Source: Verrucomicrobiota bacterium
GTDB taxonomy: Bacteria; Verrucomicrobiota; Verrucomicrobiia; Limisphaerales; CANJSG01
NCBI GenBank assembly: GCA_038209745.1
Contig: JBBQXJ010000005.1
Coordinates: forward strand, 27,153-91,152
Direction: 5' to 3'
Length of the DNA: 64,000 nt
Below, piece after piece: positions 16,466 through 22,400 of the stretch. A program made the position numbers. Each line of letters opens with the position of its first letter. Within the stretch, counting starts at the first letter, position 1.

Positions 16466-19400
16466 TAGGTTCAAATCCTAGCCCCGCAACCAATTTCAAA
16501 TCGTGAAGTCCCGTGACTGTTGAAGACAGCGCGGGATTTCCGCTTTTTCAGGGATCAACTCCAGTCCACAGCCTCCAGTCCACAGCCTCCAGTCCACAGC
16601 CGCAGCCCGGAAATGGTCGGTCGACTTCGCAATCGCCTCCCGTGGATTTCACCGCGACTCTGGCGTTCGCAATCCAGCCTCCTTCGCGCGGCATCCCATG
16701 AACCCAGGACCAGTGACGTTATCTCTCCGGAGCCTGACCAAACGCTTCGGCTCACAGATCGCGGTCGACGCGCTCACCTTCGACGTTCCCGCGGGCCAGA
16801 TCGTCGGGTTCCTCGGACCGAACGGCGCCGGGAAGTCGACGACATTGAAAATGCTGACCGGGATGCTCCAACCGACCGCCGGTTCCGCCACGGTCTGCGG
16901 CTTCGACCTCGCGACCCAGGCCATCGAAGTGAAGCGCCACATCGGCTTCGTGCCGGACTCGGGCGCGGTCTTCGAATCGCTGTCCGGACTCGAGTATCTG
17001 GAGATGGTCGCCTCCCTCTATGCGATTCCGCCACGCGCCGCGTTGGAGCGGATCCGCCAGTTCATCGCCTTCTTCGACCTCAGCTTCGAGACCCTGACCG
17101 ACAAGCTGCTGGGCGCATATTCCAAGGGCATGCGGCGCAAGGTCGTGATCACCGCCGCCCTCCTCCACAATCCGCAGGTCGTCTTCTTCGATGAACCTCT
17201 GGACGGGCTGGACGCCAACGCGGCCGTCGGATTCAAGGCGCTGATCCAGACTCTGGCCAGAGAGGGCAAGACCATCGTCTACAGCTCCCACGTCCTCGAC
17301 GTGGTGGAGCGGGTTTGCGACCGCGTGATCATCATCGACAAAGGGCGCCTCTTGCTCGACGGCAAACCGGACCAACTGGTGGCCGAGCATCGGTCAGGCA
17401 CCTTGGAACGGCTCTTCACGGATCTGACCGGCGGGGCGGAACTGGAACGGCGCGCGGAAGACTTCGGCCGCACTTTCCGGCAATGAGCGACGTCGTCACC
17501 CAGCCTCCGCCCATCCCGCCGGACCCGCCAGCGCCACCGGTCCGGAAAGCGTTGCGCCGTCTCTATCTGACCTTGTTTCTGCGCGGGCGATCGTCGCGGG
17601 GACTGCAGAAGGGCAAGGCCCCACAATCGATCGGATCGAAGCTGGCGCTAAGCCTGTTCTTCTACGCCTTGATGGGATTGATGGCGCTCTTCTTCCTGCG
17701 CCACACGGTCCATGTGATGTCGGTCTATCTCCACGCGATGACCCAGGTCTTCCTCGGGTTGTTCCTCTCGGCTTCGGCGGGGGAGATCCTGTTCAACAAG
17801 GAGGAGGGCGACATTCTCCTGCACCGTCCGATCAAGCCCGGCGTGCTGCTCTGGGCCAAGATCGGCGTCATGGTGGAGGTGTCCCTCTGGCTGGCCGGCG
17901 CCTTCAATCTGGCGGGCCTGGTCGGCGGCGTGTTCGTCAAAGACGGAGGCTGGATGTTCCCCGTGGTCCACGTGGTGTCCACCGCGTTGAGCGCATTGTT
18001 CTGCGCCGGCTCGGTGGTGTTGATCTACCAGTTGTGCCTTCGCTGGTTCGGCCGCGAAAAGCTGGATGGTCTGATGACCACGGCCCAAGTGCTGGTGGCG
18101 ATCGTGGCGGTGACCGCCGGGCAAATCCTGCCCCGCATGATGGGCCGCATGGGCGATCAAGTGGCCGCTGCCGCGACTTCCTGGTGGATCGCGATTCTCC
18201 CGCCGGCCTGGTTCGCGGCGATGGACGACGCCGTGGCCGGCAGCGGGGCCACCGCTTCCTGGATGTTGGGCGTTCTCGGCGTGGTCATCACCGCCACGGT
18301 GCTGTGGCTGGCCTTTGGCAAACTGGCGGCCACCTACGAATCCGGACTGCAATCGCTCTCCGAAGCCCAGCCCGCCAGGCCGAGGCTCCCATCGGGACGG
18401 GGCGGTCTGGAGCGGTTGCTGGGCTTTGCCCCGTTGCGCTGGTGGCTGCGCGACCCGGTGGAGCGCGCTTCCTTTCTCCTGTGCGCGGCCTACCTGCTGC
18501 GAGACCGGGATGTGAAGCTCCGCGTCTACCCCGGCATCGCCCCGATGCTGGTTCTGCCCGTCGTTTTTCTCATGGGCGGAACCCGCGGCGGCCCAGGGTC
18601 GGGCAACGAGTTCGGCCTGGTCATGGCGGGAGCCTACCTGGGAATCGTGCCGATCCTCGGGGTCTCGATGCTGCAATACTCGCAACAATGGCAGGCCGCG
18701 GACCTGTTCCGCGCCACGCCCTTGGCCGGCCCAGGCCCGCTGTGCCACGGCGCTCGGCGCGCCGTCCTGTTCTTCCTGGCCTTGCCGGTTGTGGCCATCG
18801 CCATGGTGCTGATGACTCTCATCTCCGGATCGCCGGCTCCTCTGCTGATGCTCATCCCAGGTCTGCTCCTGATGCCGGTCTGCTCGATGATCCCCTGCCT
18901 TTCAGGCGGTGGCGTTCCGCTCTCGCTCCCGACGGAAGAGGCCAAGTCCGCCGGCCGTGGCGTGATGATATTCGGCGCCATGATCGGTGCGGCCGTCGTC
19001 TCCGGCATGGCGGCGTTCGCCAAGTCATTCGGTTGGTTCTGGCCCTTCGTCGGCGTGGAGCTGCTGCTCGTGCTGGCCGTCTGCCGTGTCCTCGGCGCGA
19101 AGATCCGGTCCGCCCGCTGGAAGCCGATGGAGTAGGCCAAGCCGACCCCCGTTTCAGAAAATAGCCGCCGACGTGAGGAAGCAACGACGGGAGGCATGAT
19201 AAGCCGTTAAATCCGCCTCGTTACCTCGGCGGCTACAAAGCGGCGGCCGCTTCAACAGCGTTCCGATTATGGCCCCGCCTTCTTGGCCGCTGCTTGGATA
19301 TCCTCGTCACTGGTGGACCCGGTTGCCGGCGGGATCGATGATCGTCGCGGTGATGAGGACGAAGAGGTGTTTGGTCGTTCGAGTCGTCACGTCAGCGGCT

Positions 19401-22400
19401 TCGCCATCCGCCTTCACCCGACCGTGGACGGTGTTCGTATCCGTGGATGTCAAGCCGCCCACCAGCAACGATTGACCGTCCAAGATCCTCGCGGTCGAAG
19501 TAAAATAGCACGTGCGCATTCTGGGCAACGGCAACGTCCCCTTGATGGGTTCAGCCCCTCCGATGGAGCGCTCGGGAACAAACCCATTCGGATCGTCATA
19601 CCCGAGAAACTCGGAGTCCGTGGCGATGACCGTCAGTGCGAGGGTGAATCCATCGGCTTCCACGTAGGGAATCACGTCTAAAGTCGGACCAAATGGAATC
19701 GCACTGGTGTTGTAGGCGATGTCCGATGTTCCTAATGGCGAATTGGTCGATGAGACGCCGGTGACGACGGTCCTCAGTTCCAGCGTGGAGATCTGGGCTT
19801 GCCGTCCGGACAAGGTGGTCACCCTCGGCGCGGTGATGATCGAGGACCCTTTGGTTCCTTCCATGGATTTCAGGAGCTCGCGGGCCTGTTCTGGTGTGAG
19901 GATCGCTGCTTTTTCAGAATTTGCAGAGTCCACCCTGATTGTCGGGTTTGCCTCCTGGAATACCTTCGCCTTATTGGTTCCGGAGAGTTCCGGTTCGGCA
20001 ACCGGATGTGGAGTGAGTGCCGGCCAGTCCTTCGCCAACACCTTCATTCCCTCGTCGGAGACCTCGATCCTCTTTGCTTCGATCGTGATCTGGGGAGGAG
20101 CCGCATTGAGCACTTCAATCGCGGATTGAATGACCTCCAAATCGCTTCCCCAAGCCCTCACCATCAGTAGACCGGTTCGGTCGTTGAAAAACACCGCTTT
20201 GGGCGGAGTCAGGTCCACCCCCACTTGGGTGAAATAGCTCCTTACTAGGCTGTGGATATGGGCAGGCAGGGTCGTTGATGCTTCGAGCTTTTCCCCAATG
20301 TCTAGTTGGGACTCCGAAGTTTGTTTCTCTTCGCCAGTGCCAAGTTGGGGCTCAACTACGCTTTTCAAAGCCTGAACAAACGTATTCGGATCCACCTTGA
20401 AAACCCGTGTGACCAGGTTGGTGTCCTGCGGCTTTACCTCCTGCTTCAACGCGATGCTCGGCTCATCCCGATGCAACGCCTTGCCCACCTGGTTCACCGG
20501 AGAATCTCCGCCCGTTCGACAGGCGCTGAGGGCCACCATCGCCGCCCCGGCTCCAACGAGCGCAGCCGCACTCCATCTCCATCCCGGTTTCGGTAAACTT
20601 GGTGACTCTTCGGAGGATTCCAACAGCCGCTCGACCCGCAGGCCCAAGTCGGAGTGATCGCCATCGCCCGCTGCTGCCAGCATGGGCCACGGGGCGACCG
20701 GGCCCGGCTTTGCGGCCAAGGCCACCAAGGCTTCGGCCAAGCTGCCGTTGAGGGGACCGGCCAACCGACTCGCTTCGTCTGCCGCCAGTTCACAGGCGGT
20801 ATGCAGTCGCCGCCGAACCAGCCACACCGCCGGATGCCACCAGAGCAACGGCGCCAACACTTCGCCCAGACAGCGCCAGAGCGCGTCCAAGCCCGCGATG
20901 TGGGCGAACTCATGCGCCAGCACCGCGCGTTGATGATCCGGAGTGAACGCATCCGAGAAGTCCGACGGCAGACACACGACCGGCCGGAGCAGGCCAAAGG
21001 TCATGGGCGACGCCAACGCCCCTTGGCGCAGCTCAGGCGTCCGGTTCATCCCCAGTTGTTCCCGCACCTCCTTGGCGCGCTGGAGCAACTCCGTGTCGTT
21101 CACCGCTTGGAAGCGGCGGCGCACCAACGACAAAAGACCCAACGCCAGTCCACACCGCGCCAGCAGCAATCCGGTGCCCGCGATCCAACCCATCGCCAAC
21201 CACCCCGCGATCCGATCCTTGGACGCCGTGGCTGCGACCAATGGTTTCGCCACCAGAGAAACCGAGGAGGTGGACAGCACCATCGCCGCCCTTGGTGTCG
21301 TGGGCTGTTGCGAAGACGCCGCCGCGATGGCCGCCGCTTCGGTCGGTCTTTCAACCCGCTTCCACATCGGCGCCAAGGCTCCTCGGGCTCCGGTCCACTC
21401 CGCGAGCGCCACTCCTACCAACAACGTGGCTGTCGAAAGCCAGACCGCGCGCTGGATCTGGGCCCGCTCCAGTCGCCGCGCGAAGAGTTCGGCCAGGGCG
21501 ACGACCACCACTCCGGCGACGCCGAGGCCGGCGAGGGACAGGAACAACGGATTCCAGTCGGTCGGGTTCATAGGTCTTTCTTTTTGTCGGCGATGAGTTT
21601 CTCCAAACGGGCCAGCTCCTTCGCGCTGATCTTCCGGTCCTTCAACAGATGGCTGACCAGGTCGGAGACGCTGCCCTGGAAGATCCTTTCCAGCAGATGG
21701 CTGGTCATCCCTTGGTTCACCTGCTCGGGCTGGACCACCGCGCGGTAGATGAAAGTGCGGCCCTCGTTGCGGTGCCCGACGAGGCCCTTCTCCTCCATCC
21801 GGCGGAGCAGTGTGGCCAGCGTGGTGTAGGCGTGGGCCTCCGTGCCCAACGCCTCATGCACGTCGGCCACCGAGGCCTCGGTGCGGGACCAGAGGAACTG
21901 GAGGATGCGATGCTGGAGATCGCCCAATCGATGGAGTCGTGGAGTCGGCATGGTGAACGACAGTAGTAATACTACCTGTGTAGTATTGTCGGCAAGAGAA
22001 AAGAGCCGCCCGCTTCGATGGCTCGAAACGGGCGCTTCAAGTCAGGGCCGCGCGGCAACGCGGCCCTACCGGGATGGGGTCAGGCTTTGACCTGTTTGAC
22101 CTTGGTCCACTTCTTGGTCTTGGCGGAGGAGAGCACGGCGTCGACCACGTAGTCGGTGGCGAGACCGTCCTTGAAGTCGGGTTTGGGCGCTTCGCCCTTC
22201 TCCAGGGCGCTGAGGAATTCGACGACCTGGTGGATGAAGCTGTGTTCGTAGCCGAGCTGGAGACCGGGCACCCACCAGTTGCCGGTGTAGGGATGGTCGC
22301 CATCGGAGACGTGGACGCTCTTCCAGCCCCGTTCGCGGCCTTCGTCGGCGTGGTCGAAGATCTGGAGGCGGTGCAGGTCGTGCAGGTCCCACTTCAGGGA

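What a model noticed while it worked through the whole genome (the two positions that open the first line are those of the whole stretch)
19307..21951. BlaR1-type M56 signal protease whose sensor is a secretin domain joined through a conserved lipobox
Gene g00482 (754 aa), co-transcribed with a BlaI-type repressor gene, has the M56 zinc-protease membrane module of BlaR1/MecR1 but, in place of a penicillin-binding sensor, a secretin domain of the kind that forms outer-membrane pores; the last membrane helix ends in a lipobox (MVALSA|C) that is kept in its closest relatives. I read it as a trans-envelope alarm: the secretin part sits in (or is released as a lipoprotein to) the outer membrane and its state is relayed to the inner-membrane protease, which then removes the BlaI repressor. 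A secretin used as the input domain of a BlaR1/BlaI switch has not been described.
Evidence so far: Pfam: Peptidase_M56 aa 19-267 (E 3.5e-27; HEFAH motif), Secretin aa 573-714 (E 1.6e-10, model 5-129 of 169); sequence, and the only Penicillinase_R (BlaI) gene g00483 directly upstream, overlapping by 4 nt. The internal segment [sequence left out] lies between the two domains. Of the 120 best database hits to aa 240-754, 46 have an HExxH motif in the first 400 aa followed by a hydrophobic helix, i.e. are M56-secretin fusions of 635-1,310 aa; the rest are mostly secretins with TPR or no extra domain; 8 of the 46 have a lipobox at the end of that helix, among them the 5 best hits (50-96% identical, LSAC[RQH]TGGESP) and one at 36% (LASGC), but not three hits at 36-41%; 29 have A-x-A.
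(Added by a program. Inside this text positions count along the whole contig: contig position 27,153 is position 1 of the stretch shown here. "Call 12" and the like, gene names such as g00115 and contig names such as C1 are that model's own, and its searches are not shown. The text may have been shortened before it was handed on; [...] marks where a part breaks off. The agent that wrote the report below was given it as the finding of a first reader that could run no searches.)

Follow-up and report, generated by a model that had tools for sequence, protein, structure and literature searches.

The report
BlaI switch with lipobox-joined protease-secretin fusion
A soil or sediment Verrucomicrobiota bacterium carries a self-repressed two-gene switch of the penicillin-sensing (BlaI/BlaR1) type in which the antibiotic sensor is replaced by a whole outer-membrane pilus-channel (secretin) module, joined through a conserved lipoprotein cutting signal at the very spot where staphylococcal BlaR1 is known to be cut.

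Summary
On the minus strand a BlaI gene (21568-21951) overlaps by 4 nt a 754-aa gene (19307-21571). That gene joins an M56 zinc-protease membrane module (HEFAH 220-224) to one N3-like domain and a secretin core.

The partial Pfam secretin hit understates the domain. Profile and fold comparisons cover N3 and the whole core to the last strand (Z 10.9 to GspD).

The lipobox L348-S349-A350-C351 is invariant in the clade of the closest relatives and recurs in a second, separate clade. It lies 131 residues after the HExxH histidine. That equals the spacing of the signal-peptidase I site of S. aureus BlaR1, which is cut in experiments (PMC9834060).

A conserved double operator overlaps the blaI promoter. 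No second site was found in this genome.

The fusion is a large Verrucomicrobiota family: 110 of the 150 best cluster representatives carry M56. It is patchy (1 of 6 same-genus genomes) and an old paralogue of the pilM-linked TPR-secretin.

I found no paper on it. This scan noted the architecture before in at least 8 other genomes.

Cutting, pore formation and the signal remain untested. Verdict: new variant of a known kind, interest 0.65.

The parts
22007..22034 (-). Terminator-like hairpin after the upstream Gfo/Idh/MocA oxidoreductase gene. It insulates the blaI operon.
   Evidence: 12 pairs, 8 G-C, followed by a T run. The upstream gene was identified.
21990..21995 (-). -35-like hexamer TTGCCG (TTGAC in related loci)
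   Evidence: Sequence read and aligned upstream regions. The strict sigma-70 scan found no promoter, so this is inferred.
21970..21985 (-). Operator 1, the perfect palindrome TACTAC-N4-GTAGTA
   Evidence: It is unique in the genome at 0 mismatches. It is conserved upstream of blaI in related modules.
21957..21969 (-). Operator 2, the adjacent degenerate copy TTACTACTGTCGT (TAC-N4-GTC-GT)
   Evidence: This is the only place in the genome with two relaxed sites within 30 nt.
21568..21951 (-). blaI-type repressor gene, 127 aa
   Evidence: Penicillinase_R, E 7.7e-32. PDB relatives are 2g9w and MecI.
19307..21571 (-). M56-secretin fusion gene, 754 aa; the stop codon is at 19307-19309
20771..21517 (-). 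Peptidase_M56 membrane protease module (Pfam match, aa 19-267)
   Evidence: It aligns to BlaR1 chains 8exs and 8exp.
20900..20914 (-). HEFAH zinc-binding motif, aa 220-224
   Evidence: H220, E221 and H224 are invariant in alignments A1 and A3.
20777..20791 (-). E261-LAA-D265, counterpart of the E242xxxD gluzincin motif of BlaR1
   Evidence: E261 and D265 are invariant. The motif is named in PMC9834060.
20519..20575 (-). Last membrane helix (aa 333-351), ending in the lipobox L348-S349-A350-C351 (20519-20530)
20429..20518 (-). Linker after the Cys (aa 352-381), RTGGDSP...; low model confidence
   Evidence: pLDDT is 46-52 over model residues 1-30
20093..20428 (-). N3-like secretin N-domain with an insert (aa 382-493)
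   Evidence: model 32-143. It is 65% identical to the genome's own TPR-secretin over aa 438-516.
19310..20092 (-). Secretin core (aa 494-754)

Best explanation
This is a self-contained, self-repressed BlaI/M56 switch. A BlaI-type repressor sits on a double operator over its own promoter.

The second gene makes a precursor. Its N-terminal part is a BlaR1-type four-helix zinc protease in the inner membrane. Its outer part is a trimmed but complete PilQ-type secretin, with one N3-like domain and the secretin core.

The last membrane helix doubles as an internal lipoprotein signal peptide. Lgt would lipidate C351 and LspA would cut before it. That would release a 404-aa lipid-anchored secretin, which can travel to the outer membrane and multimerise as known lipidated secretins do. 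The protease, with its last helix, would stay in the inner membrane.

In BlaR1, uncut and cut receptor coexist, and the uncut form signals. By analogy, the time or fraction that the precursor stays uncut or engaged would set how fast the protease destroys BlaI. That in turn sets how much more of the pair is made.

Shown here: the gene pair, the intact catalytic residues, the complete secretin fold, the conserved lipobox at the BlaR1 cut position, the conserved operator, and the presence of Lgt and LspA.

Inferred: repression by BlaI, cleavage of BlaI, lipidation and cutting, outer-membrane insertion, and the nature of the signal.
For: Architecture:
- The genes overlap by 4 nt.
- Both Pfam domains score above their cut-offs.
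- H220, E221, H224, E261 and D265 are invariant in 23 fusions and in 8 M56 modules. They align with H201ExxH and E242xxxD of BlaR1.

Secretin completeness:
- The profile aligns to GspD 6i1y (E 6.8e-20) and to the lipoprotein secretin BfpB 9u5s (E 1.5e-19), through to the last strand.
- The AF2 model has pLDDT 80.8 and pTM 0.70.
- The top 40 Foldseek hits are all secretins.
- The first 28 VIA rows are all secretins at Z 8.1-10.9, covering model residues 32-404. The next, unrelated row has Z 6.8.

Lipobox:
- LSAC is invariant in 6 of 6 clade members, while the helix before it varies.
- The sister sequence P0121 reads ASGC, and the 9-row clade has support 98.
- A second clade of 4 rows (support 99) reads LSGC or LAGC.
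- 10 of 121 secretin fusions have a strict lipobox at the helix end. None of 55 other M56 proteins does; the single control hit lies mid-helix.
- There is no in-frame start codon before the helix, so the motif can act only within the fusion.
- Lgt and LspA are present.

Precedent for cutting at this junction:
- SpsB cuts S. aureus BlaR1 between G331 and Q332, just after the last helix, and a G331K mutant is protected (PMC9834060).
- The spacing from H of HExxH to the residue after the cut is 131 in BlaR1 (H201 to Q332) and 131 here (H220 to C351).
- From the aligned Arg the spacing is 38 in BlaR1 (R294) against 39 here (R312).
- Lipidated secretins that reach the outer membrane directly are known, for example HxcQ (PMC3230066).

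Autoregulation:
- TACTAC-N4-GTAGTA plus an adjacent copy lies 5 to 33 nt before the blaI ATG.
- The same double site, after TTGAC, stands upstream of blaI in 7 of 8 other fusion loci examined and in the same-genus orthologue.
- The exact site is unique in this genome.
- In three other whole genomes it is also unique. Two of the four extra exact sites in two further genomes lie at other blaI-M56 pairs.
- A terminator-like hairpin insulates the operon from the upstream gene.
Against: - Nothing here shows that the protein is lipidated or cut. I found no report of a lipobox used inside a polytopic protein (0 papers for 'internal lipobox').
- About 110 of 121 family members lack the lipobox, and many have Pro just after the helix (AVAL-PMGE), so cutting cannot be the general rule.
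- A cut would sever sensor from protease, which makes a relay harder to explain.
- Compared with the genome's own TPR-secretin, this module lacks about 53 residues between the first barrel strand and the ILT motif. It also lacks the PvLGDLPlvGRLF motif, which is why the Pfam match stops at model position 129. Pore formation is therefore not assured.
- Cys occurs near the helix end in 35 of 121 fusions, mostly outside a lipobox. A conserved Cys could serve another purpose.
- No canonical sigma-70 promoter was found by the strict scan.
Confidence: 0.4

Rival explanations
1. Tethered trans-envelope sensor. The protein is never cut. The secretin ring sits in the outer membrane, and each subunit stays joined by about 30 linker residues to its own M56 protease in the inner membrane. 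A change in the ring (assembly, gating by a pilus or substrate, damage, or distance between the membranes) is passed down the linker and the last helix, and it switches on BlaI cleavage. The conserved Cys serves some other role.
For: - Most family members have no cutting motif, and many carry Pro right after the helix.
- Long members place ExbD, SecDF-P1-head, TPR and Secretin_N domains between protease and secretin. That suits a permanent periplasm-spanning tether.
- The secretin fold is complete.
- The lip-like segment FLGYDDP...LPLPxxR is among the best conserved columns. It is close to that of the genome's own pilus secretin.
- Covalent linkage is what signalling in BlaR1 uses.
Against: - Strict conservation of a canonical lipobox in two separate clades is hard to explain without lipoprotein processing. 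The motif lies at the position where BlaR1 is cut.
- Lgt and LspA are present.
- With one N domain and about 30 linker residues the reach across the periplasm is tight. This is an inference and was not measured.
Confidence: 0.3
2. Periplasmic secretin-derived sensor, not a pore. The module is a degenerate copy of the pilus secretin that no longer inserts into the outer membrane. It reads the state of the type IV pilus machine by binding its parts or by joining the real secretin ring as an odd subunit.
For: - It is a paralogue of the genome's TPR-secretin, which lies in a pilM operon. Identity is 65% over aa 438-516 and 42% over aa 557-754.
- It has lost about 53 residues and the PvLGDLPlvGRLF motif relative to that protein.
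Against: - All long barrel strands are predicted with high confidence. The fold matches solved pores over the whole core.
- The tree places this module far from its own genome's pilus secretin, which groups with same-genus secretins. So there is no sign of the co-evolution or gene conversion expected for co-assembling subunits.
- No operator lies upstream of pilM.
Confidence: 0.15
3. Complete constitutive cleavage. The fusion is only a way to make protease and lipidated secretin in equal amounts. After cutting the two have no functional link. The M56 part senses something through its own loops, and the secretin is simply the regulated product.
For: - The only target of the repressor that I could detect is the operon itself (other genomes). 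The fused domain may therefore be the output rather than the input.
- The lipobox evidence is the same as for the best explanation.
Against: - The fusion has been kept in more than 100 clusters at 50% identity with very different middle parts. That argues for a functional link.
- Most members lack a cutting motif.
Confidence: 0.1
4. Chance or decaying fusion with no function.
For: - The gene is accessory. It was found in 1 of 6 other genomes of the genus.
- An IS481-type fragment lies about 3 kb away.
Against: - The reading frame is open.
- The catalytic residues and the operator are conserved across distant relatives.
- The orthologue in the same genus is 66% and 56% identical and keeps the lipobox and the operator.
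- Near-identical copies occur in sediment and soil metagenome runs.
Confidence: 0.03

Closest known systems
BlaR1/BlaI and MecR1/MecI of Staphylococcus aureus (structures 8EXP-8EXT; PMC9834060)
   Same: - The repressor gene is co-transcribed with an M56 membrane zinc protease.
- The HExxH and ExxxD motifs are present and align.
- The outward domain follows the last helix.
- A signal-peptidase motif sits at the same spacing after the catalytic His: 131 residues.
- The repressor probably controls its own operon through palindromic operators.
   Different: - The outer domain is a secretin, not a penicillin-binding domain. There is no PF00905 match, and NCBIfam blaR1_generic scores 56.5 bits against a cut-off of 400.
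- The cutting motif is a type II lipobox rather than a type I site.
- Gene order is repressor first.
- No divergent resistance gene is present.
- The host has two membranes.
Lipidated secretins (HxcQ of Pseudomonas aeruginosa; BfpB of enteropathogenic E. coli, PDB 9u5s)
   Same: - A secretin carries a lipobox Cys at the start of its mature part, followed by a flexible linker.
- HxcQ is described as lipidated and probably uses the Lol pathway directly (PMC3230066).
- BfpB is the second-best sequence match among solved structures.
   Different: In those proteins the lipobox ends an ordinary N-terminal signal peptide. Here it ends the fourth helix of a 350-residue membrane protease.
TPR-secretin of the Verrucomicrobiota type IV pilus locus (NCBIfam Amuc_1098 family; own-genome copy L151:7845-10757)
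   Same: It is the nearest non-fused relative of the secretin part. Identity is 65% over aa 438-516 and 42% over aa 557-754. It belongs to the same secretin subfamily in the tree.
   Different: - The pilus secretin has an ordinary signal peptide, a TPR region and the PvLGDLPlvGRLF motif. It lies in a pilM operon.
- The fused module does not group with it in the tree.
- Amuc_1098_fam scores 65 bits against a cut-off of 750.
M56-TonB fusions of Bacteroides (TonB1 and TonB10 of B. thetaiotaomicron; bioRxiv 10.1101/2023.07.07.548152)
   Same: An M56 module is fused to an envelope-machine domain in place of an antibiotic sensor. The authors say such proteins have not been functionally characterised (passage read).
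   Different: The outer domain is a TonB C-terminal domain, not a secretin.

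Membership tests
Peptidase M56 (BlaR1-type membrane zinc protease) | Pfam PF05569 match above the gathering score | tested here: met
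   93.7 bits against a cut-off of 31, aa 19-267
Peptidase M56 (BlaR1-type membrane zinc protease) | HExxH and ExxxD gluzincin motifs | tested here: met
   H220, E221, H224, E261 and D265 are invariant. They align to H201ExxH and E242xxxD of BlaR1.
Peptidase M56 (BlaR1-type membrane zinc protease) | Membrane helices before and after the protease loop, with the last one leading outward | tested here: inconclusive
   A hydropathy scan finds helices at about aa 6-34, 129-150 and 333-351. No topology predictor was available, and no full-length model was made (one search was not accepted).
BlaR1/MecR1 beta-lactam sensor-transducers (equivalogs) | C-terminal penicillin-binding sensor domain with an SxxK motif | tested here: not met
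   No transpeptidase or beta-lactamase family match. blaR1_generic scores 56.5 against 400, and sensor_BlaR1 scores 15.5 against 1200.
BlaI/MecI/CopY repressors | Penicillinase_R winged-helix domain above the cut-off | tested here: met
   110.5 bits against 22.6. PDB relatives are 2g9w (E 2e-10) and MecI (E 3.7e-8).
BlaI/MecI/CopY repressors | Palindromic operator at its own promoter | tested here: met
   Binding itself is not testable with these tools.
BlaI/MecI/CopY repressors | Inactivation by cleavage by the partner protease | not testable with these tools
   The segment aligned with the region of MecI and BlaI where cleavage is reported (site recalled, from no call) reads LVSHLL. [SDAM]HLL is kept in 9 of 11 module repressors.
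Secretins (PF00263) | Secretin domain match above the cut-off | tested here: met
   40.9 bits against 27.5, but only model positions 5-129 of 169
Secretins (PF00263) | N3 domain plus full double-barrel core fold | tested here: met
   Z 10.9, 212 residues aligned, rmsd 5.2, model 32-400 against GspD 236-591; 28 secretin rows come before the first unrelated row; the alignment reaches the final strand.
Secretins (PF00263) | Conserved P-x-LGD-x-P-x-x-G-x-LF motif before the last strand | tested here: not met
   the motif is present in the genome's own TPR-secretin and replaced here by VHGRVKADGEAADVTT. Other fusions match the whole Pfam model.
Secretins (PF00263) | 12-15-mer ring in the outer membrane | not testable with these tools
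Bacterial lipoproteins | Lipobox [LVI][ASTVI][GAS]C after a basic residue and a hydrophobic stretch | tested here: met
   R332, then 15 residues, then L348-S349-A350-C351
Bacterial lipoproteins | The signal peptide lies at the N-terminus of the precursor | tested here: not met
   The motif follows 347 residues of membrane protease, and no in-frame start lies near it.
Bacterial lipoproteins | Lgt and LspA encoded by the organism | tested here: met
   Peptidase_A8, E 2.2e-36; LGT, E 7.5e-71
Bacterial lipoproteins | Actual lipidation and cleavage | not testable with these tools
   None

The most novel reading that the evidence does not exclude
The last helix of an M56 sensor protease is a working internal lipoprotein signal peptide. 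One gene yields an inner-membrane protease and, after Lgt and LspA act on C351, a self-piloting lipidated secretin.

The uncut precursor is the active signalling form. The switch would then report how well lipoprotein processing, Lol traffic or secretin assembly is running, and it would adjust its own synthesis.

This would be the first polytopic membrane protein known to be processed at an internal lipobox. It would also extend the signal-peptidase control seen in staphylococcal BlaR1 to a type II peptidase in a two-membrane bacterium.
Probability: 0.25. Interest if true: 0.85.

Novelty: new variant of a known kind. Interest (0 to 1): 0.65.

Why it matters
BlaI/BlaR1 is the textbook case of signalling by regulated proteolysis, and it is known mainly as an antibiotic sensor of Gram-positive pathogens. 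Here the same protease and repressor core is joined to a whole outer-membrane channel module. This occurs in a large, unstudied family of an environmental phylum.

If the parts work together, this is a one-protein link from the outer membrane, or from its biogenesis pathways, to transcription.

The lipobox sits at the junction where BlaR1 is cut by signal peptidase. That gives a simple, testable handle on whether the module is released. If it is, a membrane-protein helix can serve as an internal lipoprotein signal, which to my knowledge is not documented.

Tried and rejected
- Regulon search. Exact and 1-mismatch scans for ACTAC-N4-GTAGT found only the module's own site plus 7 one-mismatch sites. 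Most of these lie inside long ORFs, one lies beside a tRNA-like sequence, and none is convincing. A relaxed 8-base motif gave 29 sites, and the only paired site is the module's own. None lies upstream of pilM.
- Conserved neighbours. Genes flanking the nine fusion loci of genome contigs differ by ORF listing. I did not run Pfam on those neighbours.
- Recent copy of, or gene conversion with, the genome's own pilus secretin. I rejected this because the two do not group in the tree (FastTree, local support only, long outgroup branches).
- Separate internal translation start for a stand-alone pre-lipoprotein. No in-frame ATG, GTG or TTG lies before the helix.
- Defence-system reading. PADLOC gave no match for the fusion and only weak winged-helix matches for BlaI.
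- A-x-A as a signal-peptidase I mark. It is not enriched. No signal-peptide predictor was available.
- Close relatives with DNA in metagenome contigs. None was above about 45% identity.
- Expression. No RNA holder was listed.
- Population variants. Contigs of 4 DNA runs were laid. In the 40 of 72 difference rows shown, none falls between 20358 and 20641. The other 32 rows were not shown, so this says little.
- Complex prediction for three copies of the secretin part was not available. A second structure job for the full length was not accepted. Neither was retried.
- Literature. 'secretin' with 'BlaR1' gave 11 papers, of which 10 were listed, and none concerns a fusion. 'M56', 'secretin' and 'Verrucomicrobia' gave nothing relevant in the 10 listed. 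BlaR1, Peptidase_M56 and Planctomycetes gave 7 papers, none on this. 'internal lipobox' gave 0. BlaR1, PilQ and Verrucomicrobiota terms gave no paper that combines them in the 12 listed.

Full report
WHAT IS THERE

On the minus strand a 127-aa gene (21568-21951) overlaps by 4 nt a 754-aa gene (19307-21571).

- The small protein is a BlaI/MecI/CopY-type repressor. Penicillinase_R has E 7.7e-32. Its closest solved relatives are 2g9w and MecI.
- The large protein has Peptidase_M56 at aa 19-267 (93.7 bits, cut-off 31) and Secretin at aa 573-714 (40.9 bits, cut-off 27.5, model positions 5-129 of 169).
- No curated NCBIfam model reaches its cut-off. blaR1_generic scores 56.5 against 400, and Amuc_1098_fam scores 65.1 against 750.
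- The assembly (4.58 Mb, 140 contigs, 92% complete) holds one M56 match, one BlaI match and six secretin-domain matches.

THE PROTEASE MODULE IS INTACT

H220, E221, H224, E261 and D265 are invariant in 23 aligned fusions and in 8 M56 modules from different loci. A profile of those modules matches only BlaR1 among solved structures (8exs, E 9.6e-13). HExxH and ExxxD align with H201ExxH and E242xxxD (the motifs are named in PMC9834060, passages read).

THE SECRETIN MODULE IS COMPLETE IN FOLD BUT TRIMMED

- A profile of aa 351-754 with 42 homologues matches GspD (6i1y, E 6.8e-20), the lipoprotein secretin BfpB (9u5s, E 1.5e-19), PilQ, pIV, RcpA and InvG. The printed best alignment, to GspD 6i1y, runs to the final strand.
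- The AlphaFold2 model has mean pLDDT 80.8 and pTM 0.70.
- All 40 Foldseek matches with E up to 0.001 are secretins.
- With VIA-align the first 28 rows are secretins at Z 8.1-10.9. They span model residues 32-404, which correspond to N3 and the whole core of V. cholerae GspD (236-591). The next row is an unrelated KH domain at Z 6.8.

The reason for the partial match shows up against the genome's own TPR-secretin (970 aa, L151:7845-10757). The fused module lacks about 53 residues between the first barrel strand and the ILT motif. It has VHGRVKADGEAADVTT where the paralogue has the PvLGDLPlvGRLF motif. Other fusions match the whole Pfam model. Whether this trimmed version still forms a pore is open. 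The tool for modelling copies together was not available.

RELATION TO THE PILUS SECRETIN

The TPR-secretin lies after a PilM gene and two unassigned genes. It is found in nearly all relatives: 38 of 41 genomes matched the query, mostly through this protein.

It is 65% identical to the fused module over aa 438-516 and 42% identical over aa 557-754. In a tree of 189 C-terminal modules, the genome's TPR-secretin groups with same-genus TPR-secretins, while the fused module sits in a clade of fusions. The tree was built with FastTree, has local support only, and has long outgroup branches. The paralogy is therefore old, and I see no sign of gene conversion between the two.

SIZE AND SPREAD OF THE FAMILY

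- aa 240-754 finds 2707 cluster representatives at E up to 0.001, and 545 at E up to 1e-30.
- Of the best 150, 110 carry the M56 module by an HMM built from alignment A1.
- Of the other 40, by my reading of their ends, several are fragments that start inside the M56 tail or the secretin. About 10 are TPR-secretins with ordinary signal peptides.
- Long members insert ExbD, SecDF-P1-head, TPR, SLBB and Secretin_N domains between protease and secretin (32 proteins scanned).
- All nine fusion loci in genome contigs have a blaI gene directly upstream. Eight come from genomes labelled Verrucomicrobiota or from subgroups of it. One, L009, is labelled Dongiaceae.
- The gene is accessory. At E up to 1e-20 the M56 part matched in 12 of 40 relatives, and in only 1 of 6 other genomes of the genus (G007). 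It was not found with this query in G006 and G008, which are 93% and 92% complete.

THE LIPOBOX

The last helix reads R332-W-S-AAALVGAGAAMVA-L348-S349-A350-C351, followed by RTGGDSP.

- In the six sequences of the clade the helix residues vary, but LSAC and [RQH]TGG[DE]SP do not. The same-genus orthologue keeps them.
- The sister sequence P0121 reads LASGC, and the 9-row clade has support 98.
- A second, separate clade of four long fusions (support 99) reads LSGC or LAGC, followed by LQSR.
- I counted 121 secretin fusions that have a complete M56 end and a hydrophobic last helix. Twelve have a strict lipobox in the window. Ten of them have it at the helix end, and two have it mid-helix.
- Of 55 other M56 proteins one has the motif, also mid-helix.
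- These are two evolutionary events, not ten independent ones.
- A-x-A is as common in the controls (24 of 55) as in the fusions (64 of 121), so it carries no information.
- No in-frame start codon precedes the helix.
- Lgt and LspA are encoded.
- A rough scan finds 86 candidate N-terminal lipoproteins with ordinary lipoboxes.

In S. aureus BlaR1 the signal peptidase SpsB cuts between G331 and Q332, in the linker just after the last helix. This sheds the sensor domain. G331K blocks the cut, and the authors propose that the site is exposed in the resting state and protected after beta-lactam binding (PMC9834060, passages read).

The spacing matches. From the first His of HExxH to the residue after the cut there are 131 residues in BlaR1 (H201 to Q332) and 131 here (H220 to C351). 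Counted from the aligned Arg, there are 38 residues in BlaR1 (R294) and 39 here (R312). In the second lipobox clade that distance is 41. In a clade that reads SAHA-QKED, the Q lies at 48 in 6 of 9 members.

So the helix-to-sensor junction of this protein family is a proven signal-peptidase site in its founding member. This clade carries the type II version of such a site.

Lipidated secretins that reach the outer membrane on their own are known, for example HxcQ (PMC3230066, passage and reference list read).

REGULATION

Upstream of the blaI ATG lies TACTACACAGGTAGTA (21970-21985), followed at once by TTACTACTGTCGT (21957-21969).

- The same pair of sites, after a TTGAC, stands upstream of blaI in 7 of 8 other fusion loci examined. 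The eighth, L009, has TACA-N2-TGTA boxes instead. The same-genus orthologue also has the pair.
- The exact palindrome occurs once in this genome. Two relaxed sites side by side also occur only there.
- In three other whole genomes the exact core occurs only at the module. In two further genomes there are four extra exact sites: two lie at other blaI-M56 pairs, one is unrelated, and one was not looked at.
- A terminator-like hairpin separates the operon from the upstream oxidoreductase gene, and the downstream gene converges.

The unit looks self-contained and self-repressed, and I could not find a wider regulon. Two limits apply: the assembly is 92% complete, and weak sites would escape these scans.

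HOW IT MOST LIKELY WORKS

Shown:
- the gene pair;
- the intact catalytic residues;
- a complete secretin fold;
- a conserved lipobox at the BlaR1 cut position;
- a conserved operator that is unique to the promoter.

Inferred by homology: BlaI represses the operon, and the M56 module cleaves BlaI.

Inferred from the motif and the BlaR1 precedent: part or all of the precursor is lipidated at C351 and cut. This gives a 404-aa lipid-anchored secretin that can go to the outer membrane, while the protease keeps the helix.

I favour a BlaR1-like scheme in which the uncut or engaged precursor signals and cutting ends or tunes the signal (confidence 0.4). The main rival is a permanently tethered two-membrane sensor (0.3). 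It fits the many family members that have no cutting motif. A periplasmic, non-pore sensor (0.15) and a purely stoichiometric co-production (0.1) remain possible.

KNOWN OR NEW

I found no paper on an M56-secretin fusion or on a lipobox used inside a polytopic protein. The library does not hold most subscription-journal papers. M56-TonB fusions are mentioned as uncharacterised.

This scan has noted M56-secretin pairs in at least 8 other genomes. The architecture is therefore a repeat within the scan. What this case adds:
- the lipobox clades;
- their match to the BlaR1 signal-peptidase site;
- the operator footprint;
- the old paralogy with the pilM-linked secretin.

I class it as a new variant of a known kind.

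Noticed in passing
window 19821-19896: In contigs of 2 of the 4 metagenome runs laid (X2, X6), a 74-nt stretch of the same length is strongly diverged. It falls within aa 559-584, from the helix after the first barrel hairpin to the start of the conserved PRVTTLSGRQ segment. The flanks stay 95-99% alike. It may be a recombination tract.
   Followed up: no
L083 (G003:C1) and L085 (G005:C296): Two genomes that carry a secretin fusion also have a second blaI-M56 pair. The L083 pair shows the same double operator. At L085 only one exact ACTAC-N4-GTAGT core was seen. Cross-talk between modules in one cell is therefore possible.
   Followed up: partly
proteins P0131, P0144, P0160, P0164, P0169: Long M56-secretin fusions carry ExbD/TolR, SecDF P1-head or SLBB domains between or after the protease and the secretin. 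This points to a toolkit of periplasmic spacers or sensors.
   Followed up: no
G000:C8:9004-9570 (own genome, minus strand): Another secretin gene of this genome (open frame 674 aa) begins MAGIRGW...VAVSAATSC-ATRDPKP. This is a relaxed lipobox, so the organism may already have an ordinary N-terminally lipidated secretin.
   Followed up: no
window 15816-16196 (-): A 126-aa ORF matches only the leucine-zipper part of an IS481 transposase (E 1.8e-8). It is probably an insertion-sequence remnant, about 3 kb from the module.
   Followed up: no
window 24070-26175 (+) and 23797-24852 (-): The 701-aa ORF carries LpxR only in aa 373-701 (E 2.1e-92). Its first half overlaps a minus-strand ORF that has a xylose-isomerase-like TIM barrel. 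The true LpxR start is probably much later than 24070.
   Followed up: no
proteins P0010-P0024: One fusion clade ends its last helix with LLFGSFQSAHA-QKED, which looks like a classic type I signal-peptidase site. A conserved SW...SWNSSPGA segment follows. Six of nine members have AHAQ with the Q 48 residues after the conserved Arg.
   Followed up: partly
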